Shown here: in pieces, positions 1,094 to 17,797 of the stretch
Layout of the letters: every line of letters starts with the position of its first letter
Numbering within the stretch: the first letter of the stretch is position 1
Origin: a virus
Taxonomy: Duplodnaviria; Heunggongvirae; Uroviricota; Caudoviricetes
DNA length: 64,000 bases
Strand: one strand, 5' to 3'
IMG/VR virus record: IMGVR_UViG_3300021255_004328
The notes under the pieces: model-generated
What the model saw: only the letters and a program-made list of their open reading frames with translations
Told to the model about the DNA's origin: nothing
Database searches by the model: none
Program-made: the position numbers and the translations under genes

Positions 1094-1309
1094 TTAGTCG
1101 TTAGCATATCCGAGAAGACGGCCAACTTCAATATGTGAACCACAGCCTTCGCCAATGCTGATTTTAACTTTTCTACCAACTTCGCAAGAAGAACTATAGC
1201 CGAGTGAGCCGCAGCCATAAGTAGATCTTGTATCGTAACTTGAGCCACATTCATTCATTTTGTAAACTGACTCAAATAATTTATCATTGTTGAAATAATT
1301 CTTAATCAT
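1094..1309 (-). CDS. small Cys/Gly/Ser-rich protein, 71 aa, with three GCGS repeats
   Basis: Internal repeats ECGSS, GCGSL and GCGSH and the pair CEVGR/IEVGR. Its start overlaps the stop of the upstream gene (ATGATTAA). Confidence 0.45.
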   Translation of the reverse strand: MIKNYFNNDKLFESVYKMNECGSSYDTRSTYGCGSLGYSSSCEVGRKVKISIGEGCGSHIEVGRLLGYAND

Positions 1310-1898
1310 TGCTTTCTCCTATCATAATATCTCTTAAGTCTTCCCACATATCTTCGGCATCATCGCCTGAAAGAGGAACCATTTTCAAAAACATTTCGTG
1401 GTCACCTTCAAGAACAAGTTTACGCACATAAGATGCAGAAGCTTTTGTTGTCAAGTCTTCAGAATTGTCATCACGAGCACCTGCGCTTTCAAATCTGATT
1501 GAGTCAAAATTATAATACATAGCAGGATTCTTTGCTTCAAATCCGTTGTACTTGCCAATCATTTCTGTAATATCGCCATCACCGCCAATACGGTCTTCTC
1601 CGCCAACATAGATTAAATCAGTAAAGCCTTGCTCATATATCTCGTGAAGCGCAAAGATAACTGTTTTTGCAGAAGACTCTTTTACACAATCACCAAAAGC
1701 TTTTTGTGCATACTTGATTTTCAATTCGTATGGGAGAGGATTTTTGTTTTCACCTTTCTTATCAACAGAATGAGATAAGTAAACAAAAGGCTCACCGTTG
1801 TTGTCAATTGCCAAGTCTTTTACGGTGTCAACCAATTTAAGATGTCCGATTGTTGGAGGATTCATTCTGCCCCAAGCAATAACTGCAGTCTTTCCCAT
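1302..1898 (-). CDS. NadM-like nicotinamide/nicotinate mononucleotide adenylyltransferase (cytidylyltransferase-fold nucleotidyltransferase)
   Basis: The N-terminus AVIAWGRMNPPTIGHLKLV contains the (H/T)xGH motif. SASYVRKLV matches the ISxTxIR-type motif. The size of 198 aa fits. Confidence 0.5.
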   Translation of the reverse strand: MGKTAVIAWGRMNPPTIGHLKLVDTVKDLAIDNNGEPFVYLSHSVDKKGENKNPLPYELKIKYAQKAFGDCVKESSAKTVIFALHEIYEQGFTDLIYVGGEDRIGGDGDITEMIGKYNGFEAKNPAMYYNFDSIRFESAGARDDNSEDLTTKASASYVRKLVLEGDHEMFLKMVPLSGDDAEDMWEDLRDIMIGESND

Positions 1899-2338
1899 TA
1901 CTCTTCCCCGTTATCTTCCTCGTGGTCTTCAATCTCTTCATCAGAAGGATTTATAATTTCCTTACCTTCGTGTTTTGCAACAAACTCAACAGCCTTGCCT
2001 GTAGGAATGTACTCCCATTTATTTGTTATACGAATAAAGCCGTCACGATGTAATGCAGTAAACTCACAAGAAAATTGTCCACGCGAATATGAAGGTCCCC
2101 ATAAAGCGTCAATAATTTCACGTCTTTTGCAGAATGGGTGTTCAACGATGTATTTGATTATTGCATAATAACCAGTTTTGCTGTCTGTTCTTGGACGTTT
2201 GTATGTCAAGTCAGCAGCTGCAGAGTGACTCCATTTCCAGTCACCACCGTTATATTTATATGATGGCAATACTTTTGTATTTCCAATTGTGAAGCCATCA
2301 GACTCTTTTAAGATGCTTTCAAACAATTCTTCTGTCAT
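1898..2338 (-). CDS. hypothetical protein with an acidic C-terminal tail (SDEEIEDHEEDNGEE)
   Basis: ORF that follows terminator T2. The acidic tail is reminiscent of SSB-type tails. Confidence 0.55.
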   Translation of the reverse strand: MTEELFESILKESDGFTIGNTKVLPSYKYNGGDWKWSHSAAADLTYKRPRTDSKTGYYAIIKYIVEHPFCKRREIIDALWGPSYSRGQFSCEFTALHRDGFIRITNKWEYIPTGKAVEFVAKHEGKEIINPSDEEIEDHEEDNGEE

Positions 2339-2369
2339 TGCAATGTCCTTTTTTATTTAGTTGTTTAAA

Positions 2370-2396
2370 CGAAAAAGACGGGCTTGCGCCCGTCTG
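2370..2396 (-). terminator. rho-independent terminator GACGGGCGCAAGCCCGTC followed by TTTTTC
   Basis: It lies after the stop of the 957-aa gene. Confidence 0.7.
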
Positions 2397-2414
2397 TTAT
2401 TATTTCAAATCAAC

Positions 2415-5288
2415 TTATATGTTAGTTGTTTGTCCAACGTTCTCGAATACGAGTACAACATATTCTGAGAATACGTTTACTTTTACTTTAACGTAAATGT
2501 AGAACTTCTTCATTGCTTTTGTTGTATCGTTGTTTACACCAGCAATATCGCAAACAGCTTTTGCCCAAATCTTGTTTGAACCAACAGTTCTCTTTGCAAG
2601 GATTGCTTCAACCTGTTCCTGACGAACTCCCATCCAGTAATCGTCAATAGGTTTCTTAATCTGCTGACGCATTACGTTGTCGCGGATTTCACGCTTACAG
2701 AGCAAGAATGCAAGTACGTGGCCGACTTCAGACCAGTCTGTTACGTTGTTAGGATCCTGAGTTGTCTTTGATGATACACACATCAAACCGTCATCAGCGT
2801 TATAAACGATTGGGTTGATGCCCTTTTCATCCATAATCTTTGTTGCTGTGTCAGAGAAGTTCCAACGAGCTTTCAAGATTGCACGAGGCAACTGACCACC
2901 CATATTGTTGTAGTTGTACCAAGCAGGAGCCCAACCACCCATCTTCTTTTCGATGATACGGCAGTACATCAAACCAACATCACCAATAGGCATCATCCAG
3001 AATGACTTACCTGTGTATGCATCGTAGAATTGGAATTCACCTGCATACTGTGCTGTCTGTTTAGAACGACCAGTAACAGTAAGTTTTGAAGGATTTGCAA
3101 ACTCGCCCTGAGTAATAAGCTTAGGAGAAATTGCCATTGCAAGCTTGTGTGTTTCAACAAGTGATGCGTGCTGTGTATGTACAAATTCCTGTCCTGTAGG
3201 ATCCATAAATACATAAACATCATCGTACTGAGCATCGAATGCTTCAGTCCAACCCTGTTTAACAATCATTTGGAACTCATCACGCCAAGCGCCACCAACT
3301 GTACCTTCTGCAAGGTTTTTCTCAACAGCATAAGTAGCATAACGCTGACCTTTAAGTTTGAGTTTGAATGTTACAGGAACAATGTTTCCTTCTACATCGT
3401 ATGTCAATTTGTCATCAACAATACGTTTCTTTGTATAGATACCGTGTGAGTCAAGATCTTCGTCAAAAGTCTTGTCAGGATGGATTTCAATGAATGACAT
3501 ATCGTCATCATTGAGAACATTTGGCCAATAAATGTTTGCACCAAAACCGTCCTTACCTTTTTCATCGAAAGAACCAGTGAACTCACCACCGCTCATCATT
3601 TCACCTGGGTAAACTTCCTCTTTTACAGAGAATGTCATTGTGTTGAAATTGATGTCTTTTACCAATGGATAGTTTGCATCGTCTTCTGTTTCAAACTGGA
3701 AGTTTGAAGGAGATACAACGTAAACGATTTCGTGGTCAATCTGAAGTGTTGTTGTGTTGTCTTCAAGTTCAGTTGCAACTTCAGCGTTGTTGTTCAAAAC
3801 TTTTACACCGTAAATCAAGATTGATTGTGTCAAGTAAGACTCACCAACATTTGCAGATGCCTTAGCAGCTGTAGGGAATTTTGTTTCATCCAACTCTGGG
3901 TTGTAAGAATACAACTTGATTTTCTTTGCAGCAGCAGCCTTTTCTGGAACGATAAGTTCATTGCCTGAGTAAGAACCTTCAATGTTCAAGAACAAGTTGT
4001 CGTCGTTGTTGTAGTTCAAATTGTCAAGAACTGAACGGTCAATTTTCTTGAGGTCACCAATGATAAGAGGAGCAGCAAAATCATACTTCCATTTATCATA
4101 ACCGATACCTGTGATGTTAACTTCAGTTGTAACCTCAGCAGGAGACTTCTGAACGATATATCCGTATGTATCAGCTTTTACATTGAGCAACCAAGTAATA
4201 CCTTGATAGCGGTTCTTTGGAGAAACATAAGTAGAAGTTGTTTCATACATTGTCTTTCCGTTAGGACCATCAACGATAACTTCAACACCAAGGAAGTTAG
4301 GGTCAACTGCAGCACCTGAAGCGCCGAATGAGTTTCCGTCTTCGAGATAAGCAACAACATCAGCCCAAGAATACTTTGAAGAAGCCATTGCACAAGCCAA
4401 TTCAACGTTTGGCAAGAGGTCTGTCAATGTTAAAAGTGGAGCATCTGAGTTGTTGTAATCGTTTGTAGATGTTGCTGTGATACCAAGCTCAGAAAGAGTT
4501 GCAAGAGCAGATGCTTGTCCTGTCTTGAATGATGAATTGTTGATAGCCCAAGAGTTACCACCAATCATTACTGAGTATGTGCCGTCTGCAGCTTTCCACC
4601 AAACACCACAATAGAAGTCTGTTACAACATCACCGTCTTTATTTTCAACATAAAGTTTATGGTCAGTCTTGTTTACAGAGTAGTAGTAAACGCCTTCTTC
4701 AAATCCAGACTTTCCGTCTCCCCAATAGTTGAGACCAATTTCCTGAACATTTGCCCAAACTTTTGCAGTAATACCTGTGATGTAAACTGCAACATTGTCT
4801 TTTGTTCCATCAGGAAGTTCACCTGTAGGATAACCTGAAGCACCGCCAACACCTTCTGGGTTAACGATAATGTTTACATTTGAGTCTCTGTAGCCTTGAG
4901 CACTTTCAAAGCCAACCTGAACCATTTGTGTATAGTCAACTACGTCCTTACCTGTAACATTGTAGAAGTCGATAAGACCTTTTGATGTAATGTAAGAACC
5001 ACCGAAGTATGAAGGATATGAAGCTGAAGAACCTGCAGGAGCAGAGATGTATAAACCATACTCTTGGTTGAAAGCTTCTGCCTCATAAAGGTCAGGCCAA
5101 TTTGATGTAGGAACACCAACCATAGCGTAAATCGCTTCCATATTACCTTTTTCAAAATAATAAGGATTCTTTTCACCCTTAGGAGCTCTTACAACCATAT
5201 AGCCCTTGATTGTGCTTGCTTCAGTATTGATTGTGAATGAACTGTCAATATCAATAAATTGCAAGCGCCAAGAATTTTTTGAACCCAT
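2415..5288 (-). CDS. large virion structural protein, 957 aa, possibly tail sheath or capsid-associated
   Basis: Long ORF that is Gly/Tyr/Ser-rich, with no enzymatic motifs. It is followed by strong terminator T2. The structural assignment is inference. Confidence 0.45.
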   Translation of the reverse strand: MGSKNSWRLQFIDIDSSFTINTEASTIKGYMVVRAPKGEKNPYYFEKGNMEAIYAMVGVPTSNWPDLYEAEAFNQEYGLYISAPAGSSASYPSYFGGSYITSKGLIDFYNVTGKDVVDYTQMVQVGFESAQGYRDSNVNIIVNPEGVGGASGYPTGELPDGTKDNVAVYITGITAKVWANVQEIGLNYWGDGKSGFEEGVYYYSVNKTDHKLYVENKDGDVVTDFYCGVWWKAADGTYSVMIGGNSWAINNSSFKTGQASALATLSELGITATSTNDYNNSDAPLLTLTDLLPNVELACAMASSKYSWADVVAYLEDGNSFGASGAAVDPNFLGVEVIVDGPNGKTMYETTSTYVSPKNRYQGITWLLNVKADTYGYIVQKSPAEVTTEVNITGIGYDKWKYDFAAPLIIGDLKKIDRSVLDNLNYNNDDNLFLNIEGSYSGNELIVPEKAAAAKKIKLYSYNPELDETKFPTAAKASANVGESYLTQSILIYGVKVLNNNAEVATELEDNTTTLQIDHEIVYVVSPSNFQFETEDDANYPLVKDINFNTMTFSVKEEVYPGEMMSGGEFTGSFDEKGKDGFGANIYWPNVLNDDDMSFIEIHPDKTFDEDLDSHGIYTKKRIVDDKLTYDVEGNIVPVTFKLKLKGQRYATYAVEKNLAEGTVGGAWRDEFQMIVKQGWTEAFDAQYDDVYVFMDPTGQEFVHTQHASLVETHKLAMAISPKLITQGEFANPSKLTVTGRSKQTAQYAGEFQFYDAYTGKSFWMMPIGDVGLMYCRIIEKKMGGWAPAWYNYNNMGGQLPRAILKARWNFSDTATKIMDEKGINPIVYNADDGLMCVSSKTTQDPNNVTDWSEVGHVLAFLLCKREIRDNVMRQQIKKPIDDYWMGVRQEQVEAILAKRTVGSNKIWAKAVCDIAGVNNDTTKAMKKFYIYVKVKVNVFSEYVVLVFENVGQTTNI

Positions 5289-5737: not shown

Positions 5738-5744
5738 TTTACAA

Positions 5745-5790
5745 TAAAAAATAGTCGGCCGAAGCCGACTAAAAATTATTTTTTATTTTT
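5745..5790. terminator. bidirectional terminator AGTCGGCcgaaGCCGACT flanked by an A-run upstream and a T-run downstream
   Basis: It lies between the convergent genes 5417..5737 (+) and 5776..5982 (-). Confidence 0.65.
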
Positions 5791-5982
5791 TAAATTTTTG
5801 ATTTCGTTTTTTATTTCACGAATGTCATCATACAAGATTTCTTGCTTTGCGTAAACCAACATAGCCCAACCTGCTGCAATATATACAACTTCATTAGTAC
5901 GGGCTCCAGCAAAAAGGTAAAACAAGCCGAAAACACCAATAAGAATTGTAATAATCATATTTATGACTTTCATTACACCCAT
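5776..5982 (-). CDS. small membrane protein with 2 TM helices, about 68 aa
   Basis: GGAGG lies 6 nt upstream of the ATG at 5982. Its start overlaps the nadD stop as TAATG. It is hydrophobic, with a basic C-terminal tail. Confidence 0.5.
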   Translation of the reverse strand: MGVMKVINMIITILIGVFGLFYLFAGARTNEVVYIAAGWAMLVYAKQEILYDDIREIKNEIKNLKNKK

Positions 5983-6566
5983 TACACGCCTCCGACATTG
6001 TTGTACCATTCTTTGTCAGTAAGATACATATCCATCAATTCTTCGATAAGTTTGTTTCTTGTATTTGTTGCAGAACAATCTTCAAACTTGTTTCCCATAT
6101 TTACTGCAAGTGCAGGAACATCTGTTCTCCAAACGCCATCACCTGCTTCTGAACCTTTACATCTGTTCGCAACGCAGAGAGTTGCAAGTTTCAAAATGTC
6201 TTCCCAGCGAGTCCAAGTTTTGAATTCCTTGTAAGAATCTTCGCCGATGATAAAGTAAAACTTGTCGTTAGGGTATTTTTCTTTGAAATACTGCAAAAGG
6301 TCAATTGTGCGCCAATTTCCGTCTTTGTCCTTTTCAACAGTATCAATCTCAACTGGGATATTGATACCTGAGAGGAAGTTTTGAATAATTGTTACCTTTT
6401 CATCGAAAGTAAAAAGATAACGCTTATCAGGACGGTAATAATTTACAGTTGTTGGGACGATAATAATTTTATCAAGATCGCACTGCTTGTAAGCATTCAT
6501 TACAACTGCTGCGTGTCCGCAAGTGAAAGGGTCAAAAGTTCCACCAAAGATACCAATTTTTGCCAT
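5982..6566 (-). CDS. nadD: nicotinate-nucleotide adenylyltransferase NadD
   Basis: GGTFDPFTCGH is the GGTFDPxHxGH motif. The C-terminal CSATNTR matches the SxTxxR motif. The length is 194 aa. Confidence 0.7.
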   Translation of the reverse strand: MAKIGIFGGTFDPFTCGHAAVVMNAYKQCDLDKIIIVPTTVNYYRPDKRYLFTFDEKVTIIQNFLSGINIPVEIDTVEKDKDGNWRTIDLLQYFKEKYPNDKFYFIIGEDSYKEFKTWTRWEDILKLATLCVANRCKGSEAGDGVWRTDVPALAVNMGNKFEDCSATNTRNKLIEELMDMYLTDKEWYNNVGGV

Positions 6567-6577: not shown

Positions 6578-7219
6578 TTAGTCAAGATGATAGCCTGCAG
6601 CAAAAAGTGCAGCAATCCCCATCGCGTGTTCTGATATTTCAGATGTATGGTCCAAAAGTCTGTCGTAGATTACTTCACAATCTTCGTTTTCGTCAAGATT
6701 CTGTTCGCCTTTCTTTGCAATCAATTCATCAAGGTTTGGAATTGTGCAGCGATAGATTGACATTGTGTTGTTGAAGTATGCAGGATTTGGGTTGAAAGTA
6801 ATAAGATGCTTCAGCTCGATGTTATTTGCATCCAAGCCTGTTTCTTCTTTCAATTCCCGCAGTGCAGCATTCTTTCTTCCGTCTGCAATAATATCCCGCT
6901 TTTCGTCGTCGCTTATTCTTTTCCAAAGTTCGTTGAATTCTTCTTCGCTTTTTACAAGTGCAGCGGCAAAGAAGTCTTCTTTATCAACAGTTCCACAAGG
7001 GAACTCAATTGTCTTGTCTTCAAGGCCCCAGCGAGTTTGCTTGATAAGAACTGCTTTTGCATCGTATTCCCAGCAAGGCTTATCTGTTATGATTACCATA
7101 ACCCAGTCATTACAGTTAAGTCCTACAGGATTAAACTTTGTTCCTTCAAAAGTCTTTTTGACAACTGTGAACACAGGAGTCTTGAGCAATTCTTCTTCGT
7201 TAATCTTTTTCATTTTCAA
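6578..7219 (-). CDS. Nudix hydrolase, ADP-ribose or NADH pyrophosphatase-like
   Basis: The Nudix box RELKEETGL (REUxEExGU) with GRKNAAL upstream. It is adjacent to nadD. Confidence 0.5.
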   Translation of the reverse strand: MKMKKINEEELLKTPVFTVVKKTFEGTKFNPVGLNCNDWVMVIITDKPCWEYDAKAVLIKQTRWGLEDKTIEFPCGTVDKEDFFAAALVKSEEEFNELWKRISDDEKRDIIADGRKNAALRELKEETGLDANNIELKHLITFNPNPAYFNNTMSIYRCTIPNLDELIAKKGEQNLDENEDCEVIYDRLLDHTSEISEHAMGIAALFAAGYHLD

Positions 7220-9389: not shown

Positions 9390-10697
9390 TTATTTGTTAG
9401 CTGCCATTCTCCAAGCAATTTCGCCATTAAGGCGGCTGATTGCTGCAGGATTGCGGCACATATTCTTCCCAGGTGCATCACTGAGTTTAGCAACATCCAA
9501 ACCATTTACGATTGCAACTTTACATACGATGTTAAGAGCATCGATACCCTGAGGTCCAGACCAATCAGTTCCGATACCGAATGCAACCTTTGCCTTACCC
9601 TTGAAGTACTTATTGATTTCAGTTGCCTTCTGAAGATTGAGACCGTCACTGAACATCAAAGTTTTTGTCATAGGGTCAATTCCCAAGCTCTTGTAGTGAG
9701 CAATCATCTTTTCGCCCCAAGCGTAAGGGTCACCTGAGTCGTGGCGAACACCGCTGAACAAAGTTGCAAATGTTTTTTGGAAGTCTTTCAAGAAAACATC
9801 TGTTCCGATTGTATCAGTAAGGGCGATACCATTCATTGTTCCGTATTCTTTAACCCAAGCATCAAGGGCAAACCAGTTGCTGTAAGCAGGGTTGTGGTAA
9901 AGGTGTCCCTGGCCGACTGTCATAATGAACTCGTGAGCCATTGTGCCGACCGCAGTAATGCCATACTTCTTTGCAAGATACATATTTGATGTACCGATGA
10001 AGCCCTGAATTGGACCGATTGCATTCTTCTTTTTCTCTTCAACAAGGCGGCCAATCAACCAATCCTGAAGTTCGAAAGATACACGGCGACGAGCACCAAA
10101 CTCAGAGAAAATCCCTGGTGCATAAATGCCTTCGCGCATAAAGCGAAGCTTCTCTTCAGTCTTTTCCTTGAAGTCTTTTGCAAGCTTTTCGTAATCGTAG
10201 TGATTGCGGTAATAAGTTTCTGCGGCAATTTCAAGAATTGGGATTTCATAGAAAGAAACTTTCCACTGAACGCCTTTTGTATGGATTGCAAGGCCTGTAA
10301 CTGGGTCATCTTCAACAGTGATTTCTTCAATGTGAGGACGCCAATCGCGGATTGTTTCAATGTAGTTGTGATGAATCCAAGGACGCTTTTCAGAGTCACA
10401 AAGCCAAGAAAGTTCATCTTCATCATAGCGGAGGGCGCAGAATGCTTTCAACTGATTGACAATCTCTTCGCGGTCTGCGGCTGTATATTTTTCGTGAGTT
10501 GTGCCTTCACCAACATTGCGGGCTTTGAAATCCCAAGTTGCGTGGTCGCTGCTGAACTGATGCAAATAACACTGACGCATACTGTCTTTGTACTGGTCTG
10601 TGTCAAGCAAGCTTTTACACATAGGCGGGTACTTAAGTCCGAATGCTTTTACAACTTCTGCTTCATCTGCAGTAAGTTTTCCGTTAATTTTCCACAT
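9390..10697 (-). CDS. pncB: nicotinate phosphoribosyltransferase, PncB-type NAPRTase
   Basis: SLLDTDQYK at the N-terminus, FSEFGARRRVS and GTMAHEF match the PncB signatures LLDTDxYK, DFGTRRR and GTxAHE. The NAMPT alternative was considered and judged less likely. Confidence 0.65.
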   Translation of the reverse strand: MWKINGKLTADEAEVVKAFGLKYPPMCKSLLDTDQYKDSMRQCYLHQFSSDHATWDFKARNVGEGTTHEKYTAADREEIVNQLKAFCALRYDEDELSWLCDSEKRPWIHHNYIETIRDWRPHIEEITVEDDPVTGLAIHTKGVQWKVSFYEIPILEIAAETYYRNHYDYEKLAKDFKEKTEEKLRFMREGIYAPGIFSEFGARRRVSFELQDWLIGRLVEEKKKNAIGPIQGFIGTSNMYLAKKYGITAVGTMAHEFIMTVGQGHLYHNPAYSNWFALDAWVKEYGTMNGIALTDTIGTDVFLKDFQKTFATLFSGVRHDSGDPYAWGEKMIAHYKSLGIDPMTKTLMFSDGLNLQKATEINKYFKGKAKVAFGIGTDWSGPQGIDALNIVCKVAIVNGLDVAKLSDAPGKNMCRNPAAISRLNGEIAWRMAANK

Positions 10698-11316: not shown

Positions 11317-11351
11317 TATAATATAAAAGAGTTTTGATTAAAGTTTATTTG
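11317..11351 (-). promoter_or_regulatory. Family-A promoter, variant -35 ATAAAC
   Basis: The minus-strand sequence is CAAATAAACTTTAATCAAAACTCTTTTATATTATAAA. Confidence 0.5.
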
Positions 11352-12420
11352 TATCGTAAAAATTACAGTTTCCGTGAAAAATACTTTTGAATTCAGCTTC
11401 ACGGTCAAGTTCATCACAATGAGTAACTTCTACTGTAAATCTTTTAATATGATGCATTGCGACTTCTTTTTCACATCTTTGTTTCAAATCTGCCAAATCA
11501 AGATAATCATAGAAGAAGTCGTGTTGCCATTCGTTATATTGATTAACTTCTGTTGACTTATTAAGGTCACAGTCAAGTTTATGTCCAACAAAAGTATCAG
11601 AGCCGTGACGAGTAATATAAGGTCGTGTTACGAAATGAACATTTGCATCTTTCAAATCAATGTATGATGGCAATCCTGTGTTTGAAGGTGTTGCTTCTTT
11701 ATCATCAAAACCTTTATCACCTAAAAGAAGACCTTGTCCATTTTCAATAATAAAGTGTTGTGATTGAAGTTTTGAAGCCAAGTTTAAGAATGACGGGCTA
11801 ACTTTGCAACATTCAAACATTGACATAGAGTCTCTTATGAAATGCTCAATAAGAAAGTCAGAATACCAAGGCGTTCGATATTTTGGGTTGATTTTAATCT
11901 TTCTTACGCCTTCATAATAATCGCGGATCTTTTTAAGAAACTCAACTTGTTCATCGTGAGGACGAGCTGCAAAACTATCAAAGTCCATATACACACCATT
12001 ACGATAACGAAGTACAGTTTCCCAAATGCCCATACCGCAAGAGCCTGTCCACTTTTCTTTTTGCAACATTTGATTTGCCATTATGTCCCAAGGAGTAACC
12101 CACTTACAAGATGCAGAACGACAAGCTATAGGCTCAATACCGTAAACTTTTTTAATTTCTTCTTTTTCATTATTGAACTGAATAGGGTCAAGAATAAAGT
12201 CTGGGCTGAAAAATGTTCGAACACCTAAAGGAGTTGCAGAATTGAAGTGTTTGAAAATATGCTGCTTTCCGTCGTATATTACAGAGTGTCCTCTTTGAGC
12301 GCCGCCATTGCCCATAATAACAAAAGTTTGTCTTGGGTCATACTGCTTTGCAATACGAGCAACTGTGAGGCCTTTTCCTTCATCTCCGTAATTTGCGCCA
12401 ATTACAACATCAATACTCAT
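11338..12420 (-). CDS. adenylosuccinate synthetase family protein, short archaeal/PurZ-like form of 360 aa
   Basis: GANYGDEGKGLTV is the P-loop GDEGKGK motif. GHSV matches the conserved GHT(V/L). It is about 70 aa shorter than bacterial PurA. Confidence 0.75.
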   Translation of the reverse strand: MSIDVVIGANYGDEGKGLTVARIAKQYDPRQTFVIMGNGGAQRGHSVIYDGKQHIFKHFNSATPLGVRTFFSPDFILDPIQFNNEKEEIKKVYGIEPIACRSASCKWVTPWDIMANQMLQKEKWTGSCGMGIWETVLRYRNGVYMDFDSFAARPHDEQVEFLKKIRDYYEGVRKIKINPKYRTPWYSDFLIEHFIRDSMSMFECCKVSPSFLNLASKLQSQHFIIENGQGLLLGDKGFDDKEATPSNTGLPSYIDLKDANVHFVTRPYITRHGSDTFVGHKLDCDLNKSTEVNQYNEWQHDFFYDYLDLADLKQRCEKEVAMHHIKRFTVEVTHCDELDREAEFKSIFHGNCNFYDTNKL

Positions 12421-12423
12421 TTT

Positions 12424-13109: not shown

Positions 13110-14030
13110 TTACCACTCCAAGCCTTCGCCATTGTCTTTCTTTTCTGCAGGAGCTGCAACATCTTCAGCAAGTCTTTCACGCTTCTTGTATGATTTTTCA
13201 ATACATTTAACGATGCTTCTCTGAAGTCTGTTTACTGAAGACACAATATAATTGTCCTCGCCGATAACATCTTTGAATGACTTATCAACGCTTTCTTCGT
13301 AAGAGCCTCTATCGCTGTTGTAGTTTGTTCTGTCATCTTGGACAGTAATGTGATAAATGTCAAACTTCTTTGAAGCTGCTTCATAAAGTTTGTCTGTTTT
13401 TACTTCAGTCTGTTCTTCAAGTCCGACGCCCAAGAAGTGTTCAACATCTCTTCTGTTCAATGCAGGATTGAGCGGCTCATCACCCATTGTAATAATAATG
13501 CCTTTTCTTCCCTGCTTGTCGTAACAATCCAATCTTGTATGGTAAAGACCAAAATACCAAGGAGCTGTATATGACTCATAAGAATTACCCCCACCGCCTT
13601 TTTCAAGGTAAATTTCCTGCATCTGTTTTGCAACACGAACATCAGACTCAAACTGAGAAACCTGAAGTGGCGCATCATCACATTCAAGATCTCCTACGCC
13701 CATTACACAAACTTCAACGTCCTTAAACTGTTCGTAAAGCTCTTTCATCAAGTTTGCAATAGATGCAGCGCATTCATCACAAGCTGAACCCATTGAACCA
13801 GTAACATCAAGAGCAAGAATTACAGGCACTGTGTTAGGGTGTTCCTCTGTATTGCAGCATTCACGAACTCTGCTTTTTGGGTCAAGCTCACTGTGTAAAG
13901 AAGTCTGTGAGTATTTCATATTGTTGAGACGAACTGTTTTTACGCCATCAACCACGCTGTTAGTCATTACAGCGCCAACTGACTTTGCATAGCTGCTAAA
14001 AGAATCTGCACTGTAGCATCCGCCACCCAT
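13110..14030 (-). CDS. von Willebrand factor A (vWA) domain protein with MIDAS motif
   Basis: ILALDVTGSMG is the DxSxS MIDAS motif. The likely start is the ATG at 14030, with GGAGG 6 nt upstream. The ORF track's TTG start at 14042 is less likely. Confidence 0.6.
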   Translation of the reverse strand: MGGGCYSADSFSSYAKSVGAVMTNSVVDGVKTVRLNNMKYSQTSLHSELDPKSRVRECCNTEEHPNTVPVILALDVTGSMGSACDECAASIANLMKELYEQFKDVEVCVMGVGDLECDDAPLQVSQFESDVRVAKQMQEIYLEKGGGGNSYESYTAPWYFGLYHTRLDCYDKQGRKGIIITMGDEPLNPALNRRDVEHFLGVGLEEQTEVKTDKLYEAASKKFDIYHITVQDDRTNYNSDRGSYEESVDKSFKDVIGEDNYIVSSVNRLQRSIVKCIEKSYKKRERLAEDVAAPAEKKDNGEGLEW

Positions 14031-14043
14031 ATTAACCTCCAAT

Positions 14044-14090
14044 ATGTTAAAATAACATTAACAATGTTAATGTGACACTGTTAATGTTAT
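14044..14090 (-). promoter_or_regulatory. operator-like site: a 19-bp perfect palindrome ACATTAACAaTGTTAATGT (14055-14073) plus a third TGTTAATGT copy (14079-14087)
   Basis: Seen directly in the sequence, between the 343-aa ORF and the vWA gene. Confidence 0.5.
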
Positions 14091-14097
14091 TGTGATT

Positions 14098-15129
14098 TTA
14101 TTTTGCTGTGCCTTTCTCTTCGTCTTCGATAGCAGCAAGTTCAGCCTTAAGGCGGGCTTTCTTTGCTTCAAGAGTTTCGTCACCGTTTACATCAACGTCT
14201 GGGATTTCAAGGTCGAACATACCTGAGAAGTCAAACAAGTCGTTGTCTCCACCAAGTCCGCCACCGAAAAGAGCCATCAAAGCCAAACCGTTAAGTCCGC
14301 CGTTGCCCTCGCCATCTCCGTTGCCACCGAAGTTGAAGCCTTTACCAGAGAGTGCATTCATCAAAGCCATCTTTCCGAGAAGCTTACCAAACTTGTCAGT
14401 TCCTTTTGAACCTGCAAGGTCTCCGATTGGGATAAGAGAGTGGATCTTGTTGTAGAAGAACATCTTTCCAAGGAAGAAATGACGCTCAGGCACGATTGTC
14501 TGAATTTCATTTGTTCTGTAGTCCATAACCTTGATTGTCTTACCGTCTTCGAGAGCAGTAACACATTTTGGTGCAACTCCCTGAGGAGCATCTGGGTCGT
14601 CAAGAACAATGATGTCGCCAACCTTTACTTTTGCAGTTGGTACACAAATAAACAAATCCTGTCCAATATCGAAACAGAAATCCTGAACATTTACAAGCTG
14701 CTTTGTTTTCGCATTGTAAGTTTTATAGCCGGAGCCACTTTTTACAGCAAGTTCACCGTTAAGACCAATTCTTACCATCCCAGGCTTAATTGGCTTAAGG
14801 AACTTTCCAAACATTCCATTTACATCCATAGGAACCTCCATATTATTTTCTTCGACAACTTCCTCGTCGTCGCTTTCTTCTTCATAAGTTTCGTCATCTT
14901 CAGTATTATCAAAATAAGGCTGAAGTGTATCGAACAACTCACCTTCACAAAGTTCAAGACTTCCCTTCAAAAATGTTATATGGTATATCATTTGCCCAAA
15001 AGGCTGCTCACGATACATTCCCATACAACTCCAAGAGTTTGTTGGCTGCTCACACCTTATCTCCATTACGGGTCCCATATTAGGGAAAGCTTTTGGGATT
15101 GTGTCTTGAAGTAACTTAAAATCCAACAT
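14098..15129 (-). CDS. hypothetical protein with an acidic patch and a Gly-rich C-terminus
   Basis: ORF with the segment GNGDGEGNGGLNGL; it is the partner of the vWA gene. Confidence 0.55.
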   Translation of the reverse strand: MLDFKLLQDTIPKAFPNMGPVMEIRCEQPTNSWSCMGMYREQPFGQMIYHITFLKGSLELCEGELFDTLQPYFDNTEDDETYEEESDDEEVVEENNMEVPMDVNGMFGKFLKPIKPGMVRIGLNGELAVKSGSGYKTYNAKTKQLVNVQDFCFDIGQDLFICVPTAKVKVGDIIVLDDPDAPQGVAPKCVTALEDGKTIKVMDYRTNEIQTIVPERHFFLGKMFFYNKIHSLIPIGDLAGSKGTDKFGKLLGKMALMNALSGKGFNFGGNGDGEGNGGLNGLALMALFGGGLGGDNDLFDFSGMFDLEIPDVDVNGDETLEAKKARLKAELAAIEDEEKGTAK

Positions 15130-15138
15130 AAAATTATA

Positions 15139-15942
15139 TTAACATTTTGCTACCCTATCGAAAGCATCAGGTATAAATTCTTCAAGAGCAGAAGGCATTT
15201 CAATAAGTTTGTATTTTGTGTTAGGATTGTGATGCATAGTAACAATCTTTCTGAAAAGTTCTTCAGACTTTGGAGGGAGACCTGTTAAAATAAATGTATC
15301 AAGTGTTTCATAGTCGAAGCCCATATTGTCTTCGTCACTCTTTCCACACATACCGTCTGAAGGCGTTTTGTGAACAAGGTCAGTCGGCAGCTTCATATAA
15401 TCGCCAAGGGCAACAACTTCAGTTTTTGTAAGTCGATTGAGAAGAGAGAAGTCACCTGCAGCATCGCCGTATTTTGTACTGTAACCTACATAGTCTTCAG
15501 ACTTGTTACAAGTGTTGCAAACAAAACCACCGTAAAGAGCAGCTATGCTGTAAAGAGTAACCATACGAAGGCGGGCAGGAGTGTTTGTTGTGTAGAGCTT
15601 TGGTATTTCATCACCTTCATACCAATCGCCAATTCTTGATGTAAGGTCGTTGTACATACCTTTTATGTTGATTTCAACGCTGCGAAGGCCGAGAATATCA
15701 ATAACTTTTTTGCTGTCGGAGATGTCTGCCTGTTCTCCGTTCGGCATCATAACACCAATTACCTTTTCAGGACCAAGAGCTTCAGCGAGAAGAGCAGCAC
15801 AGATTGTTGAGTCTTTTCCGCCACTGATACCAATTACTGCAGGGCCTTTCTTATCTTTGAAAAAGTTTTTAATCCAAACGATAATCTTATCGTGAATGTC
15901 CTTCATTCTTTCTTCAGTTGTAAAAGTATCAAAGCTAGTCAT
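15139..15942 (-). CDS. nadE: NH3-dependent NAD+ synthetase NadE
   Basis: VIGISGGKDSTICAALL is the SGGxDS PP-loop motif. The 267-aa length and overall NadE pattern fit. Confidence 0.75.
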   Translation of the reverse strand: MTSFDTFTTEERMKDIHDKIIVWIKNFFKDKKGPAVIGISGGKDSTICAALLAEALGPEKVIGVMMPNGEQADISDSKKVIDILGLRSVEINIKGMYNDLTSRIGDWYEGDEIPKLYTTNTPARLRMVTLYSIAALYGGFVCNTCNKSEDYVGYSTKYGDAAGDFSLLNRLTKTEVVALGDYMKLPTDLVHKTPSDGMCGKSDEDNMGFDYETLDTFILTGLPPKSEELFRKIVTMHHNPNTKYKLIEMPSALEEFIPDAFDRVAKC

Positions 15943-16041
15943 TTTTCTTCTCCTGTCGCTTTTTCCTCAAGTTGTCGATTACATTTGTTATTTTAAGGTA
16001 AATCAATACAAGAGATACCTTGATAAACTTTAAGAAGTTTT

Positions 16042-16485
16042 TCAATCCCAATCCTCCACGTGTTTGAACCCATAACAGTGTTCGCCGTCATTAGGCCAAT
16101 TATCTTCAGTCTTTTCACAGCCCGTCATAACATAATCGCTATGTTCACCTTCACGGTAGTAATAAGACTGTTTATAACGTACTTGTTTCTTTCCGTTGTA
16201 TTTGCAGTTTTCACAACAAGGTTTTCCAAACTCTTCAATAGGTTTTTCTTCAACCTCTTTAAGATCTTCTTCAAGGCGTTTTACAAAGCTTTCTTCTCCG
16301 TCGTCACCTGAAAAAAGATAATCAACTCGATGCAAACAAACCTGTGCTTTGCGAATTGTTTTAAGGCATTCACGAAGAGCTTTCTGAGTTGTCTCATTAT
16401 AAGCTCCTCCTTGCCATCTCAATTCATTTTCGAGTTGCTCAAGATTCATTGAAAGATTGTTGTTATAAAAATGTCCGCCACTCAT
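16042..16485 (-). CDS. hypothetical Cys-rich protein
   Basis: ORF; the internal ATG at 16485 avoids overlap with the upstream gene. Confidence 0.45.
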   Translation of the reverse strand: MSGGHFYNNNLSMNLEQLENELRWQGGAYNETTQKALRECLKTIRKAQVCLHRVDYLFSGDDGEESFVKRLEEDLKEVEEKPIEEFGKPCCENCKYNGKKQVRYKQSYYYREGEHSDYVMTGCEKTEDNWPNDGEHCYGFKHVEDWD

Positions 16486-16694
16486 TTTCTTATTCCTAAG
16501 TCTTTCAAGCATTGAAGATAACCGTCAAAGAAGCCTTCATCTCTTCCTTGTTCAAAGCCGTTGTCGTATTCTTCTTCTGCTCGAATGTCTTCTTCATTTT
16601 CGTAAACACCGTGAGCATCACTTTTATAACGAGTATTCTGATACTGTTCAACTTTTTTGTTGATAAAATTGTCGTCATAAGTTGTGATGCTCAT
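16482..16694 (-). CDS. hypothetical protein, 70 aa
   Basis: ORF. Confidence 0.4.
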   Translation of the reverse strand: MSITTYDDNFINKKVEQYQNTRYKSDAHGVYENEEDIRAEEEYDNGFEQGRDEGFFDGYLQCLKDLGIRK

Positions 16695-16706
16695 AATGTG
16701 TACCTC

Positions 16707-17216
16707 TTATACAATTTCGCACTGACACATCTTCATTGTTGTCAATGCAGCTTCGTGACTTTCAGGAGTGAGACCTGCGCAGCAATCAGCAATTACCTTT
16801 ACTTCAACGCCTTCGATAGCCTTGAGAGCAAGGGCGTTACTTACAACACAAATGTCAGTACAAGTTCCCACAATTGTTACTTCATCGTTAGGCTGAATGT
16901 AATTGCCCCAGTTGTCATAGCCGAAGTGAAGCTTGTCGATGATTGTAGTTTTGTCATCAATCTCTTCTTTGAGTTCAGGAACAATTTCCCAGCCTTCTGT
17001 GTTCTGAATACAGTGCTTTACTGGGAGATGCTTACCTTCACCTGTTTCAAGATAACCATCAAAGTGTGTATCACGGGTAAAGATGATGTTGTCACCGTTT
17101 GCCTTTGCTGCCTGCAACTCCGCCTTAAGGCGCGGTATAATTGCAACAGCTGCATCGTTCTTCAAAGCGCCTGTGCAGAAATCGTTCTGCATATCAATTA
17201 CGATAAAGTGTTTCAT
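16707..17216 (-). CDS. pncA: nicotinamidase PncA, isochorismatase fold
   Basis: VIDMQNDF, TRDTH, VKHC and GTCTDICV carry the catalytic Asp/Lys/Cys signature. Its ATG at 17216 overlaps the upstream stop as ATGA. Confidence 0.7.
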   Translation of the reverse strand: MKHFIVIDMQNDFCTGALKNDAAVAIIPRLKAELQAAKANGDNIIFTRDTHFDGYLETGEGKHLPVKHCIQNTEGWEIVPELKEEIDDKTTIIDKLHFGYDNWGNYIQPNDEVTIVGTCTDICVVSNALALKAIEGVEVKVIADCCAGLTPESHEAALTTMKMCQCEIV

Positions 17217-17797
17217 TTGTTTGCCTCCAATATTTCGTCTAATGTTTTTGGTCCCCATTCCATATAAGGAACAGCAAAACCTACATTATACATATTAACC
17301 TTGAATGAATTGCCGGCCTGTCCTGTCATACCCTCTTCATACTCTTTCTTCCACTTTTCGATAAAAGCGTTATCTCTTGGGTTAACGTGGATGTGTCCGT
17401 AAAGATGGATGTTTCCACGCATTACACCGTCAAACTGAATGATTGGGTAATGAGAAAGAATAAGAGTGCGGCCTTTTTGGTCGTGCATCTTATGATAGCC
17501 TTCGTGAATCTCTTCAAAAAGATTTCTGATATGACCGACTTTCAACATACGGCCATCGTGATTGCCTGTAACCAAATACTTTTTTCCGTTGAGAGCTTTA
17601 AGAACATCTTCGTTTTCTTTGTTTGCAAGCCAAAGAATATCACCAAGCAGCCAAACGTGGTCATTAGGCTCCACACGGCTGTTCCAAATTTCAATCATTT
17701 TTTCATTCTGTTCTGCAAGAGTCTTAAAAGGACGATTGTCAAATCTCAAACAATTTTCGTGTCCTATATGTAAGTCACTGACAAAAAACTCTTTCAT
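17213..17797 (-). CDS. calcineurin-like metallophosphoesterase
   Basis: The motifs DLHIGH, GDILW, GNHD and GHIH. AGGAG lies upstream of the start. Confidence 0.7.
   Translation of the reverse strand: MKEFFVSDLHIGHENCLRFDNRPFKTLAEQNEKMIEIWNSRVEPNDHVWLLGDILWLANKENEDVLKALNGKKYLVTGNHDGRMLKVGHIRNLFEEIHEGYHKMHDQKGRTLILSHYPIIQFDGVMRGNIHLYGHIHVNPRDNAFIEKWKKEYEEGMTGQAGNSFKVNMYNVGFAVPYMEWGPKTLDEILEANK

What the first reader, a model, noticed from the sequence alone, without database searches (positions are those of the whole stretch)
1302..17797. Phage-encoded complete Preiss-Handler NAD+ salvage route (PncA, PncB, NadD, NadE) plus NMNAT, Nudix, macro-domain and phosphoesterase accessories
Four enzymes that together convert free nicotinamide back to NAD+ are all present on the same strand. 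They are PncA at 16707-17216, PncB at 9390-10697, NadD at 5982-6566 and NadE at 15139-15942. A NadM-like adenylyltransferase (1302-1898), a Nudix hydrolase (6578-7219), a macro-domain protein (29268-29720) and a metallophosphoesterase (17213-17797) are also present. NADase-based defences such as Thoeris, SIR2, DSR and SEFIR leave nicotinamide plus ADP-ribose. A phage carrying the whole deamidating route could rebuild NAD+ from those products. The published phage NAD-reconstitution pathways use other enzymes: NARP1 uses Adps/Namat and NARP2 uses Nampt/Nmnat. This would therefore be a third, undescribed solution. The co-located Nudix and macro proteins would handle ADP-ribose.
Basis: partly seen in the sequence, partly recalled or inferred. 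Interest (0 to 1): 0.85.

Follow-up and report, generated by a model that had tools for sequence, protein, structure and literature searches.

The report
Rumen jumbo-phage nicotinamide-to-NAD+ salvage genes
A large sheep-rumen phage carries all four enzymes that turn nicotinamide back into NAD+ through nicotinic acid; the genes are real, but the module is already reported and widespread in large phages, and its proposed role against NAD-destroying bacterial immunity is untested.

Summary
On the minus strand are a nicotinamidase (PncA, 16707-17216), nicotinate phosphoribosyltransferase (PncB, 9390-10697), NaMN adenylyltransferase (NadD, 5982-6566) and ammonia-dependent NAD synthetase (NadE, 15139-15942). 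All keep their catalytic motifs. An ADP-ribose-pyrophosphatase-type Nudix, a metallophosphoesterase, a second HIGH-type nucleotidyltransferase and a distant TARG1-like macro protein are also present.

The module is not a chance cluster. A 259-kb relative has the genes almost contiguous. Of the 80 IMG/VR loci with the closest PncB, 67 carry all four enzymes. The cultured jumbo phage Phosso carries NadE, PncB, a Nudix, an adenylyltransferase and a PncA-like gene.

The claim of a "third, undescribed solution" fails. Li et al. 2024 described Preiss-Handler clusters (pncB-nadD-nadE) in gut jumbo phages and proposed counter-defence. The name NARP3 now belongs to PnuC/NadR.

No one has shown that the deamidating route defeats NADase immunity. 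The same contig carries an NAD-dependent DNA ligase, so plain NAD+ supply is an equally good rationale.

Verdict: new member of a known kind. It is a good, testable candidate for a fourth NAD+ reconstitution pathway. Interest is moderate.

The parts
16707..17216 (-). PncA, nicotinamidase (nicotinamide -> nicotinate + NH3), 169 aa
   Evidence: Pfam Isochorismatase 98.4 bits. Best PDB matches are nicotinamidases: 1ILW at 5.5e-17 and 3PL1. Catalytic Asp8 and Cys123 and the metal ligands Asp49/His51/His68 are invariant in six phage homologues and conserved in about 85 further loci. A conserved Lys is present: K95 in the IDK motif, or K89 in the phmmer alignment. GGAGG SD motif and ATGA overlap with the upstream gene.
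9390..10697 (-). PncB, nicotinate phosphoribosyltransferase (nicotinate + PRPP [+ATP] -> NaMN), 435 aa
   Evidence: Pfam NAPRTase 207.6 bits plus NAPRTase_N 62.6 bits. TIGR01514 357.5 bits against a cutoff of 269.55. PDB 1YIR at 4.6e-73. GTMAHE motif with invariant His255.
5982..6566 (-). NadD-type NaMN adenylyltransferase (NaMN + ATP -> NaAD), 194 aa
   Evidence: CTP_transf_like 63.8 bits. TIGR00482 108.9 bits against a cutoff of 112.45. All 18 PDB matches at E <= 1e-5 are NadD, the best 1KAM at 8e-18. Motifs GGTFDPFTCGH (T-x-G-H variant) and SATNTR. The T-x-[GA]-H variant is the norm in the phage NadD clade.
15139..15942 (-). NadE, ammonia-dependent NAD+ synthetase (NaAD + ATP + NH3 -> NAD+), 267 aa
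   Evidence: NAD_synthase 160.5 bits. TIGR00552 157.1 bits against a cutoff of 63.65. SGGKDS PP-loop, conserved in all 86 related NadE sequences. No CN_hydrolase domain.
6578..7213 (-). Nudix hydrolase of the ADP-ribose / ADP-sugar pyrophosphatase type, with a helical insertion inside the Nudix box, 211 aa
   Evidence: Pfam NUDIX 31.3 bits and a weak NudE hit. The AF2 model has pLDDT 94.9. The top 50 Foldseek PDB matches are all ADPR/ADP-sugar pyrophosphatases. Nudix-box residues G74, R119, E120, E123, E124 and G126 are invariant. A Nudix gene is linked to the module in independent lineages.
17213..17797 (-). Metallophosphoesterase (phrog_547), translationally coupled to PncA; substrate unknown
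   Evidence: Metallophos_2 29.2 bits. phrog_547 133 bits. PDB 1XM7, an uncharacterised Aquifex protein, at 7.7e-13. Sits directly upstream of PncA in the window, L003 and L004, but rarely in other lineages.
1302..1898 (-). Second HIGH-superfamily nucleotidyltransferase; possible NMN/NaMN adenylyltransferase, substrate unresolved, 198 aa
29268..29720 (-). TARG1/OARD1-like macro-domain protein, 150 aa; not part of the cluster (11.5 kb away)
   Evidence: phmmer against PDB 4J5R/2L8R at 3.4e-6 over the full length. My reading of that alignment places the equivalents of catalytic Lys84 and Asp125 as conserved. No Pfam or NCBIfam hit.
5752..5771 (-). Terminator-like hairpin with T-run, just after NadD and the 77-aa ORF; likely end of the co-directional gene array that starts near 17797
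   Evidence: 8-bp stem with 5 GC pairs and tail TTTTTTATTG. No comparably strong minus-strand site lies between 17797 and 5776. Pattern match only.

Best explanation
The region is part of a jumbo phage genome from sheep rumen. The contig block is 0.2-1 Mb and a relative is 259 kb.

It encodes a complete deamidating nicotinamide salvage route:
- PncA deamidates nicotinamide to nicotinate.
- PncB couples nicotinate with PRPP (ATP-assisted through a phospho-His) to give NaMN.
- NadD adenylates NaMN to NaAD.
- NadE amidates NaAD with free ammonia to give NAD+.

A linked Nudix of the ADP-ribose pyrophosphatase type would split ADP-ribose into AMP and ribose-5-phosphate. That removes a toxic by-product and returns carbon towards PRPP through the host Prs enzyme.

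Expressed from the phage and free of host NAD regulons, the set would raise flux from nicotinamide to NAD+ in the infected cell. This keeps NAD+ available for phage processes such as the phage's own NAD-dependent DNA ligase. It could also rebuild NAD+ when TIR, SIR2 or SEFIR-type immune NADases cleave it.

Shown here: the family identities, intact catalytic motifs, and recurrent synteny in many divergent phages. Inferred: enzymatic activities, NaMN preference of NadD, co-expression, and above all the counter-defence benefit, which I put at about 0.4 on its own.

This locus is one more member of the 'NAD-jumbo phage' / phage NAD-salvage island class, not a new kind.
For: - Family assignments with curated cutoffs passed for PncB and NadE, and near-cutoff for NadD.
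- The PDB best hits are the expected enzymes.
- Catalytic and metal residues are conserved.
- Genes are co-directional and tightly spaced, with SD motifs and a terminator-like site only after NadD.
- Relative L003 (259-kb UViG) has MPE-PncA-NadE-PncB-NadD-x-Nudix within 5.8 kb.
- Distant families carry contiguous Nudix-PncA-PncB-NadE-NadD, or PncA-YqeY-NadM/Nudix-PncB...NadE.
- 529 PncB stretches were found in IMG/VR. Of the 80 best loci, 67 have all four functions within 17 kb or less, spread over 16 clusters at 90% PncB identity, 10 of them with the full set.
- Flanks of three families tested hit phage PHROGs strongly.
- Cultured phages Phosso and Atu_ph07 carry the same kind of set.
- The Nudix fold matches ADPRases.
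- Published precedent: PMC11662467.
- The same contig carries an NAD-dependent ligase.
Against: - No activity or expression data exist.
- NadD scores just below the equivalog cutoff and has Thr in place of the first His of HxGH.
- In this phage the four genes are interleaved with about 15 unrelated ORFs, including a PurA-like gene, a vWA-like gene and ORFans, so they do not form a compact operon.
- No phage PRPP synthetase or niacin/nicotinamide transporter was found among the ORFs scanned.
- Bacterial hosts normally already have NadD and NadE, so the gain depends on flux and regulation rather than on a new capability.
- The route costs PRPP plus up to 3 ATP per NAD+ and has four steps, so it may be too slow to outrun an activated NADase.
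- The host and its defence repertoire are unknown.
Confidence: 0.7

Rival explanations
1. Metabolic supply only. The module is an auxiliary metabolic gene set that raises or maintains NAD+ for the phage's own NAD-consuming enzymes and for a long jumbo-phage infection cycle, with no specific link to NADase immunity. Candidate consumers are the NAD-dependent DNA ligase, ThyX/redox metabolism and possible ADP-ribosyltransferases.
For: - A LigA-type ligase (PF01653 + PF03120, 356 aa) lies on the same JGI contig about 7 kb beyond the window start, and also in relative L175.
- In L028 an NAD-dependent ligase sits two genes upstream of PncA.
- Li et al. 2024 list many NAD-consuming enzymes in NAD-jumbo phages.
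- The lytic jumbo phage PA5oct upregulates the host pncA-pncB1-nadE operon (PMC7318152).
- No recognisable anti-defence gene is adjacent to the module.
Against: - LigA releases NMN, not nicotinamide, so PncA is not needed for ligase turnover.
- Entry at nicotinamide, together with a recurrently linked ADP-ribose pyrophosphatase, fits recycling of the two products of NAD+ glycohydrolysis.
- NARP2, a comparable synthesis pathway, has been reported to work as counter-defence (Osterman et al.).
- The two roles are not mutually exclusive.
Confidence: 0.45
2. Not a working pathway in this phage. The genes are independently acquired or partly decayed host-derived genes, scattered among unrelated ORFs, and one or more steps are inactive or act on other substrates. 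Examples: the NadD variant lacking the first His, or PncA acting as another isochorismatase-family amidase.
For: - The genes are interleaved with many ORFans.
- NadD is just below the TIGR00482 cutoff and has a T-x-G-H motif.
- The PncA equivalog score is low, 41.7 against a cutoff of 174.
Against: - All catalytic and metal residues are conserved across relatives at 22-94% identity, which indicates purifying selection.
- The same four functions are kept together in most related and distant phage loci.
- T-x-[GA]-H is the rule in the phage NadD clade, and by general knowledge is also the PPAT-type variant of the HIGH motif.
- The nicotinamidase-specific D-H-H metal site is present.
Confidence: 0.1
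3. The window is cellular DNA (a bacterial chromosome or island) rather than a phage, so the genes are ordinary host NAD salvage genes.
For: Close PncB homologues (64-72% identity) sit on contigs binned into bacterial MAGs.
Against: - Those MAG contigs are 244-306 kb and are assigned to mutually inconsistent phyla, as expected for mis-binned jumbo phages.
- The window is 64 kb of almost entirely one-strand, densely packed, mostly ORFan genes.
- It has PHROG hits to phage helicase, tRNA nucleotidyltransferase and phosphoesterase families.
- Its close relatives are IMG/VR viral genomes of 61-259 kb.
- No tRNA gene was found, and no ribosomal-protein or other housekeeping family turned up among the ORFs scanned.
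Confidence: 0.03

Closest known systems
'NAD-jumbo phages' with Preiss-Handler clusters (Li et al. 2024, Microbiome, PMC11662467)
   Same: - Gastrointestinal or rumen jumbo phages encoding every step of an NAD+ route.
- An explicit example of a pncB-nadD-nadE gene cluster (Kuafu_71).
- Phage pncA is mentioned.
- Counter-defence against NAD+ depletion is proposed but untested.
   Different: - Here PncA and an ADPRase-type Nudix are shown to be regular parts of the module across lineages.
- In this phage the genes are interleaved with other ORFs.
- Strong SD motifs argue, by inference, against the Bacteroidota hosts predicted for the Kuafu clade.
NARP2 (Nampt + Nmnat; Osterman et al. 2024) and the KVP40 NadV/NatV salvage pathway
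   Same: - Starts from free nicotinamide and PRPP and makes NAD+ regardless of what happened to the ADP-ribose half. In principle it would therefore also work against non-canonical NAD+ cleavage, following the logic in 10.64898/2026.01.28.702374.
- A Nudix ADPRase is often attached, as in NatV and NadM-Nudix.
   Different: - Amidated two-step route through NMN, versus a deamidated four-step route through nicotinate, NaMN and NaAD.
- The PRTase here is an NAPRTase equivalog, not Nampt.
- This route needs ammonia and more ATP.
- NARP2 has been validated experimentally; this route has not.
NARP1 / NARP1-AP (Adps + Namat, with or without the macro-domain phosphatase Adpp)
   Same: - Aims at restoring NAD+ after NADase action.
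- A macro-domain protein exists in the same genome window.
   Different: - No PRPS-like Adps or Namat was detected.
- ADP-ribose is predicted to be hydrolysed by the Nudix rather than re-used intact.
- The macro protein is TARG1/OARD1-like rather than Poa1p-like and is not in the cluster.
NARP3 (PnuC-like transporter + NadR-like enzyme; Yan et al. 2026, PMC13464706)
   Same: A phage-encoded NAD+ restoring pathway built from canonical bacterial salvage enzymes.
   Different: It uses imported nicotinamide riboside. No PnuC or NadR was found among the window ORFs scanned.
Bacterial pncA-pncB-nadD-nadE deamidating salvage (Preiss-Handler pathway plus nicotinamidase)
   Same: Same four enzyme families and the same chemistry. 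Closest solved structures are P. aeruginosa PncB2, B. subtilis NadD and P. horikoshii PncA.
   Different: - Encoded by a virus.
- Proteins are only 30-46% identical to cellular-looking homologues.
- NadD carries a T-x-G-H motif.
- No NiaR, NadR or NrtR-type regulator was recognised nearby.
Cultured jumbo phages: Sinorhizobium phage Phosso (PV764938) and Agrobacterium phage Atu_ph07 (NC_042013)
   Same: - Phosso: NadE - PncB - MutT-like Nudix - NMNAT - PncA-like 'hydrolase' within about 6 kb.
- Atu_ph07: Nudix (ADPRase) - cytidyltransferase - PncA-like gp236, plus PncB gp242.
   Different: - Only 30-31% PncB identity, and alphaproteobacterial hosts.
- No NadE was seen within the Atu_ph07 stretch examined.
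- The adenylyltransferase is annotated as NMNAT or cytidyltransferase rather than NadD.

Membership tests
Deamidating nicotinamide salvage (PncA + Preiss-Handler PncB/NadD/NadE) | Nicotinamidase with an Asp-Lys-Cys triad and an Asp/His/His metal site | tested here: met
   Alignment to 1ILW and 3PL1. D8, D49, H51, H68 and C123 are invariant in phage homologues and conserved in about 85 loci. The exact catalytic Lys (K89 or K95) depends on the alignment.
Deamidating nicotinamide salvage (PncA + Preiss-Handler PncB/NadD/NadE) | A PRTase that is an NAPRTase (not Nampt or QAPRTase) with the phospho-acceptor His | tested here: met
   TIGR01514 357.5 bits against a cutoff of 269.55, and NF003704 398.5 against 379. 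All six PDB matches at E <= 1e-5 are NAPRTases. GTMAHE His255 is invariant.
Deamidating nicotinamide salvage (PncA + Preiss-Handler PncB/NadD/NadE) | NadD-type adenylyltransferase with (H/T)xGH and SxTxxR motifs that prefers NaMN | tested here: inconclusive
   Family level is met: all 18 PDB matches at E <= 1e-5 are NadD, and the motifs TCGH and SATNTR are present. However, TIGR00482 scores 108.9 against a cutoff of 112.45, and NaMN versus NMN preference cannot be read from the sequence.
Deamidating nicotinamide salvage (PncA + Preiss-Handler PncB/NadD/NadE) | NAD+ synthetase with an SGGxDS PP-loop | tested here: met
   TIGR00552 157.1 bits against a cutoff of 63.65. SGGKDS is present. No glutaminase domain, so the enzyme is ammonia-dependent.
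Deamidating nicotinamide salvage (PncA + Preiss-Handler PncB/NadD/NadE) | Conversion of nicotinamide to NAD+ demonstrated | not testable with these tools
   Requires enzymology or isotope tracing.
NAD-jumbo phage (Li et al. 2024) | Phage genome over 200 kb that encodes every step of at least one NAD+ synthesis route | tested here: met
   The exact PncB and NTase proteins occur on contigs in the 0.2-1 Mb size block. A relative with 86% PncB identity is a 259-kb UViG. All four steps are present. The full genome was not inspected.
NARP1 | Adps (PRPS-like ADPR pyrophosphokinase) plus Namat | tested here: not met
   No PRPS-like or Namat-like hit among the window ORFs scanned with Pfam, NCBIfam or PHROGs. 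The smallest ORFs were not all scanned.
NARP2 | Nampt (nicotinamide PRTase) plus Nmnat | tested here: not met
   The only PRTase is an NAPRTase equivalog. An NMNAT activity for NadD or for the 1302-1898 product is possible but unproven.
NARP3 | PnuC-like NR transporter plus NadR-like NR kinase/NMNAT | tested here: not met
   No PnuC or NadR hit in any scanned ORF of the window.
ADP-ribose pyrophosphatase subfamily of Nudix hydrolases | Intact Nudix box and the ADPRase-type fold with an N-terminal beta domain | tested here: met
   Nudix-box residues are invariant. The AF2 model has pLDDT 94.9. The top 50 PDB fold matches are all ADPR/ADP-sugar pyrophosphatases. Substrate was not tested. A 31-aa helical insertion in the box is atypical.
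Macro domain, TARG1/OARD1 type | Full-length homology with the catalytic Lys and Asp | tested here: met
   phmmer 3.4e-6 to 4J5R and 2L8R over residues 16-159. The Lys84 and Asp125 equivalents align as K and D (residue numbering of TARG1 is from memory). No Pfam hit.
NadM/NMNAT (for the 1302-1898 product) | HIGH-type NTase whose closest relatives are specifically NMN adenylyltransferases | tested here: inconclusive

The most novel reading that the evidence does not exclude
The PncA-PncB-NadD-NadE module with its linked ADP-ribose pyrophosphatase is a true fourth phage NAD+ reconstitution pathway. It is widespread in large gut, rumen and soil phages. It would rescue infection from TIR, SIR2 or SEFIR NADases and, because it needs only the nicotinamide half, also from non-canonical NAD+ cleavers such as aRES that defeat NARP1.
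Probability: 0.35. Interest if true: 0.6.

Novelty: new member of a known kind. Interest (0 to 1): 0.4.

Why it matters
NAD+ is a central battleground between bacteria and phages. Three phage NAD+ restoring pathways have been named so far: NARP1 and NARP2, reported as validated, and the later PnuC/NadR pathway NARP3.

The deamidating route has only been catalogued bioinformatically. This survey suggests it is common in large uncultivated phages: 529 PncB stretches were found in IMG/VR, and most of the closest loci carry all four enzymes. It also exists in cultured jumbo phages that could be manipulated.

If it counters NADase immunity, three things would follow:
- It would add a fourth, mechanistically distinct pathway that depends only on nicotinamide.
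- It would help explain why big gut and rumen phages invest in four-gene metabolic modules.
- It would give a ready cassette for engineering phages that resist NAD-depleting defences.

If it does not, it remains a clear example of a phage-borne cofactor-supply module tied to NAD-dependent ligases.

Tried and rejected
- **Megablast against INPHARED.** The 16.5-kb region had no nucleotide match among 50,697 phage records. tblastn with PncB found only 13 records.
- **PRPP synthetase or Adps-like gene.** I looked among the 310-aa and 343-aa neighbours. 13110-14042 carries a vWA-like DxTGS motif and hits phrog_2971. 14098-15129 is an ORFan. Neither had a useful PDB hit.
- **PurZ hypothesis for 11338-12420 (Z-genome).** phrog_1211 hits at 6e-28. 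However, NCBIfam PurZ scores only 18 bits against a cutoff of 300, the PDB PurA matches cover only the N-terminal part (residues 3-133 at most), and no DatZ or MazZ was seen. I treat it as a divergent PurA-family enzyme of unknown role.
- **Blocked or empty attempts.** The afdb50 fold library was unavailable. No supplementary tables of Li et al. were held.
- **Promoter scan.** Not above chance: 49 sites against 42 +/- 6.9 expected.
- **NAD-consuming enzymes inside the window.** Pfam found none. An NAD-dependent ligase was found just outside the window instead.
- **Host inference from PncB homologues.** Ambiguous. The closest 'genomic' hits are probably mis-binned phage contigs.
- **Literature.** No 'NARP4' phage pathway exists in the library searched. 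Osterman et al. 2024 do not mention PncA, PncB or NadE. Iyer et al. 2021 describe only Nampt-type systems.

Full report
**1. Observation**

Almost all substantial ORFs in the window run on the minus strand and are tightly packed.

- **PncB (9390-10697).** Pfam gives NAPRTase at 207.6 bits plus NAPRTase_N. NCBIfam passes the curated cutoffs: TIGR01514 at 357.5 against 269.55, and NF003704 at 398.5 against 379.
- **NadE (15139-15942).** NAD_synthase at 160.5 bits, and TIGR00552 at 157.1 against 63.65. It is 267 aa with no glutaminase domain.
- **NadD (5982-6566).** CTP_transf_like at 63.8 bits. TIGR00482 scores 108.9, just below its cutoff of 112.45.
- **PncA (16707-17216).** Isochorismatase at 98.4 bits.
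- **Accessories.** There is a Nudix (31.3 bits), a Metallophos_2 protein (29.2 bits) and a sub-threshold CTP_transf_like hit for 1302-1898. The macro ORF has no Pfam or NCBIfam hit, but it aligns over its full length to human OARD1/TARG1 at E 3.4e-6, with the catalytic Lys and Asp positions conserved.
- **Start sites.** The Nudix most likely starts at the ATG at 7213.

**2. Are the enzymes intact?**

- **PncA.** Its best solved relatives are real nicotinamidases: P. horikoshii 1ILW at 5.5e-17 and M. tuberculosis PncA 3PL1. The catalytic Asp and Cys align, as do the Asp/His/His metal site that marks nicotinamidases within the isochorismatase superfamily. D8, D49, H51, H68 and C123 are invariant in phage homologues down to 22% identity and conserved in about 85 further loci. 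The catalytic Lys is either K89 (phmmer alignment) or, more likely, the conserved K95.
- **PncB.** All six PDB matches at E <= 1e-5 are NAPRTases (1YIR at 4.6e-73). The GTMAHE motif, which I take from memory to hold the phospho-acceptor His, is invariant.
- **NadD.** All 18 PDB matches at E <= 1e-5 are NadD enzymes (1KAM at 8e-18). Its motif is GGTFDPFTCGH, which has Thr in place of the first His, plus SATNTR. T-x-[GA]-H is the norm in the phage NadD clade.
- **NadE.** It has the SGGKDS PP-loop, which is present in all 86 related sequences.

**3. Accessories**

- **Nudix.** The AF2 model is confident (pLDDT 94.9). Its 50 best PDB fold matches are all ADP-ribose or ADP-sugar pyrophosphatases, including NUDT5, Mt-ADPRase, Thermus Ndx2 and ADPRase, E. 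coli NudE and the Bdellovibrio NDP-sugar hydrolase. The Nudix-box residues are invariant. An unusual helical insertion of about 31 aa sits inside the box.
- **Metallophosphoesterase.** It belongs to a common phage family (phrog_547). Its only solved relative is an uncharacterised Aquifex protein.
- **Macro gene.** It lies 11.5 kb from the cluster. A TARG1-like enzyme could equally serve to reverse ADP-ribosylation of DNA or protein; this is an inference from general knowledge.

**4. Context**

- **Source.** The exact proteins occur on a JGI contig (3300002641), on contigs in the 0.2-1 Mb size block, and in NCBI AUXO01. AUXO01 is the sheep rumen metagenome of Shi et al. 2014.
- **Phage character.** The window shows PHROG hits to a phage helicase, a CCA-adding enzyme and a phosphoesterase. 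It also has many ORFans and no tRNA genes. Close relatives are IMG/VR genomes of 61 and 259 kb.
- **Host.** Strong SD motifs precede the genes. The host is unresolved. PncB homologues at 64-72% identity lie on 244-306-kb contigs binned into taxonomically inconsistent MAGs, which are probably phages. Cellular-looking homologues at 42-46% identity are in Treponema and Clostridia MAGs from rumen and hindgut.
- **Gene arrangement.** In this phage the four pathway genes are spread over 11 kb and interleaved with a PurA-like gene, a vWA-like gene and ORFans. Gaps are short, and the first convincing minus-strand terminator-like hairpin lies just after NadD, at 5771-5752.

**5. Recurrence**

- The 259-kb relative has MPE-PncA-NadE-PncB-NadD-x-Nudix within 5.8 kb. 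This shows that the intervening genes here are lineage-specific insertions.
- Distant viral families (25-40% identity) carry contiguous Nudix-PncA-PncB-NadE-NadD next to a CCA-adding enzyme. Another carries PncA-YqeY-NadM/Nudix fusion-PncB...NadE. A third carries PncB...glutamine-dependent NadE-Nudix.
- A profile-seeded scan found 529 PncB-encoding stretches in IMG/VR. Of the 80 best loci, 67 carry PncA, PncB, NadE and NadD or NadM within 17 kb or less. These fall into 16 clusters at 90% PncB identity, 10 of them with the full set.
- Flanking genes of three families tested hit phage PHROGs strongly. They include T4-type topoisomerase II, RNA ligase and, in one family, an NAD-dependent DNA ligase two genes from PncA.
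- Among deposited phages PncB is rare, at 13 of 50,697 records. It does occur in cultured jumbo phages. Sinorhizobium phage Phosso has NadE-PncB-Nudix-NMNAT-PncA-like. Agrobacterium phage Atu_ph07 has Nudix-NTase-PncA-like plus PncB.

**6. Mechanism**

- **Best-supported reading.** This is a phage-borne deamidating salvage route: nicotinamide -> nicotinate -> NaMN -> NaAD -> NAD+. ADP-ribose is disposed of or recycled by the Nudix. The route would run outside host NAD regulation.
- **What is shown and what is inferred.** The sequence and synteny evidence is shown. The activities, and what the route is for, are inferred.
- **Arguments for recycling of NADase products.** The pathway enters at nicotinamide, which is not the product of DNA ligase. 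An ADPRase is recurrently linked to it.
- **Arguments for plain supply.** The same contig encodes a LigA-type NAD-dependent ligase about 7 kb outside the window, and relatives do too. This supports the reading favoured by Li et al. and by the PA5oct transcriptome, in which the phage upregulates host pncA-pncB1-nadE.
- **My estimate.** I put the counter-defence role at roughly 0.35-0.4. The two roles are compatible.

**7. Comparison with what is known, and novelty**

Neither is present here.
- NARP3 is now PnuC/NadR.
- Li et al. 2024 had already reported complete Preiss-Handler pathways and a pncB-nadD-nadE cluster in gut jumbo phages. That paper mentions phage pncA and proposes counter-defence against NAD+ depletion.
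- Virome surveys list pncA, pncB and nadE as auxiliary metabolic genes. 'NAD-salvage islands' are described in freshwater jumbo phages.
- No paper in the library reports a 'NARP4' phage pathway or an experimental test of the deamidating route.
- The locus is therefore a new member of a known kind.
- What this analysis adds is threefold. The catalytic machinery is intact. PncA and an ADPRase-type Nudix are regular parts of the module. The module is very common in large uncultivated phages and is present in culturable ones.

**8. Verdict**

Interest is moderate (0.4). The hypothesis is well posed and easily testable, but it is neither surprising to specialists nor undescribed.

Noticed in passing
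window 11338-12420 (-): A divergent adenylosuccinate-synthetase-family protein sits in the middle of the NAD cluster. Scores: Pfam 51.8 bits; phrog_1211 'PurZ-like' at 6e-28; NCBIfam PurZ only 18 bits; PDB PurA matches at 2e-7 cover only the N-terminal part (residues 3-133 at most). It is 96% conserved in L004 and absent from the compact module of L003. No DatZ or MazZ partner was seen, so a Z-base role is unsupported.
   Followed up: partly
beyond the window start; L177 17066-18136 (same JGI contig, about 7 kb past window position 1): A short (356 aa) LigA-type NAD-dependent DNA ligase with adenylation and OB domains only. A similar gene occurs in relative L175, and a full-length NAD-dependent ligase lies two genes from PncA in L028. 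This is a phage-encoded NAD+ consumer linked to the module.
   Followed up: partly
window 6578-7213 (-), residues about 78-112: A helical insertion of about 31 aa lies inside the Nudix box, between Gx5E and REx2EE. It is shorter in L003. Insertions at the same site occur in the Nudix proteins of Atu_ph07 (gp238) and Phosso. The effect on catalysis or regulation is unknown.
   Followed up: partly
window 1302-1898 (-): A small HIGH-type nucleotidyltransferase family, seen so far only on metagenomic contigs, with invariant GRxNPPTxGH...SASxxR. Only 15 homologues were found in 5.8 billion protein clusters. The gene order NadD-Nudix-957aa-NTase is conserved in relatives (L004, L175).
   Followed up: partly
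window 2415-5288 (-): A 957-aa ORFan with no Pfam or PHROG hit. It is 73-96% identical in relatives in L003/L004, and a 958-aa ORF occupies the same position in L175, always between the NadD/Nudix genes and the second nucleotidyltransferase. A terminator-like hairpin follows at 2395-2376.
   Followed up: no
window 13110-14042 (-) and 14098-15129 (-): A vWA-like protein (DVTGSMGS MIDAS-like motif, phrog_2971) and an adjacent 343-aa ORFan lie immediately downstream of NadE. Both are conserved in L004 and absent from L003.
   Followed up: no
window 1-~570 (-), continued in L001/L177: The C-terminal part of a 465-aa metallo-beta-lactamase / beta-CASP / RMMBL protein (RNase J / CPSF-like). The precomputed Pfam list includes a faint Anti-Pycsar Apyc1 hit, which is probably only the shared MBL fold.
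   Followed up: no
window 21989-23479 (-); also L008 7476-8894: A CCA-adding tRNA nucleotidyltransferase (phrog_2244). The same kind of enzyme lies directly upstream of the Nudix-PncA-PncB-NadE-NadD operon in the distant L008-L011 phage family.
   Followed up: no
window 31173-32810 (-), 43119-43862 (-), 37671-40478 (-), 30117-30821 (-), 45126-51032 (-): Other notable genes: an SPFH/flotillin-like protein (545 aa), two BspA-type leucine-rich-repeat proteins, ThyX, and a 1968-aa ORFan with no family hit.
   Followed up: no
L096 (244 kb), L097 (306 kb) and other genome-contig loci: Contigs of 244-306 kb carry PncB at 64-72% identity to this phage's protein. They are binned into MAGs of inconsistent taxonomy (Bacteroidales, 'Fimenecus', Spirochaetia, Elusimicrobium). 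They are probably jumbo-phage genomes mis-binned as bacterial.
   Followed up: no
L015-L094 (IMG/VR): One very large family has PncB >= 90% identical across 60 of the 80 loci, on contigs of about 90-215 kb (many from dataset 3300045988). It carries PncA-x-PncB-NadD-NadE with NadD motif TNAH. It is apparently absent from the INPHARED collection.
   Followed up: partly
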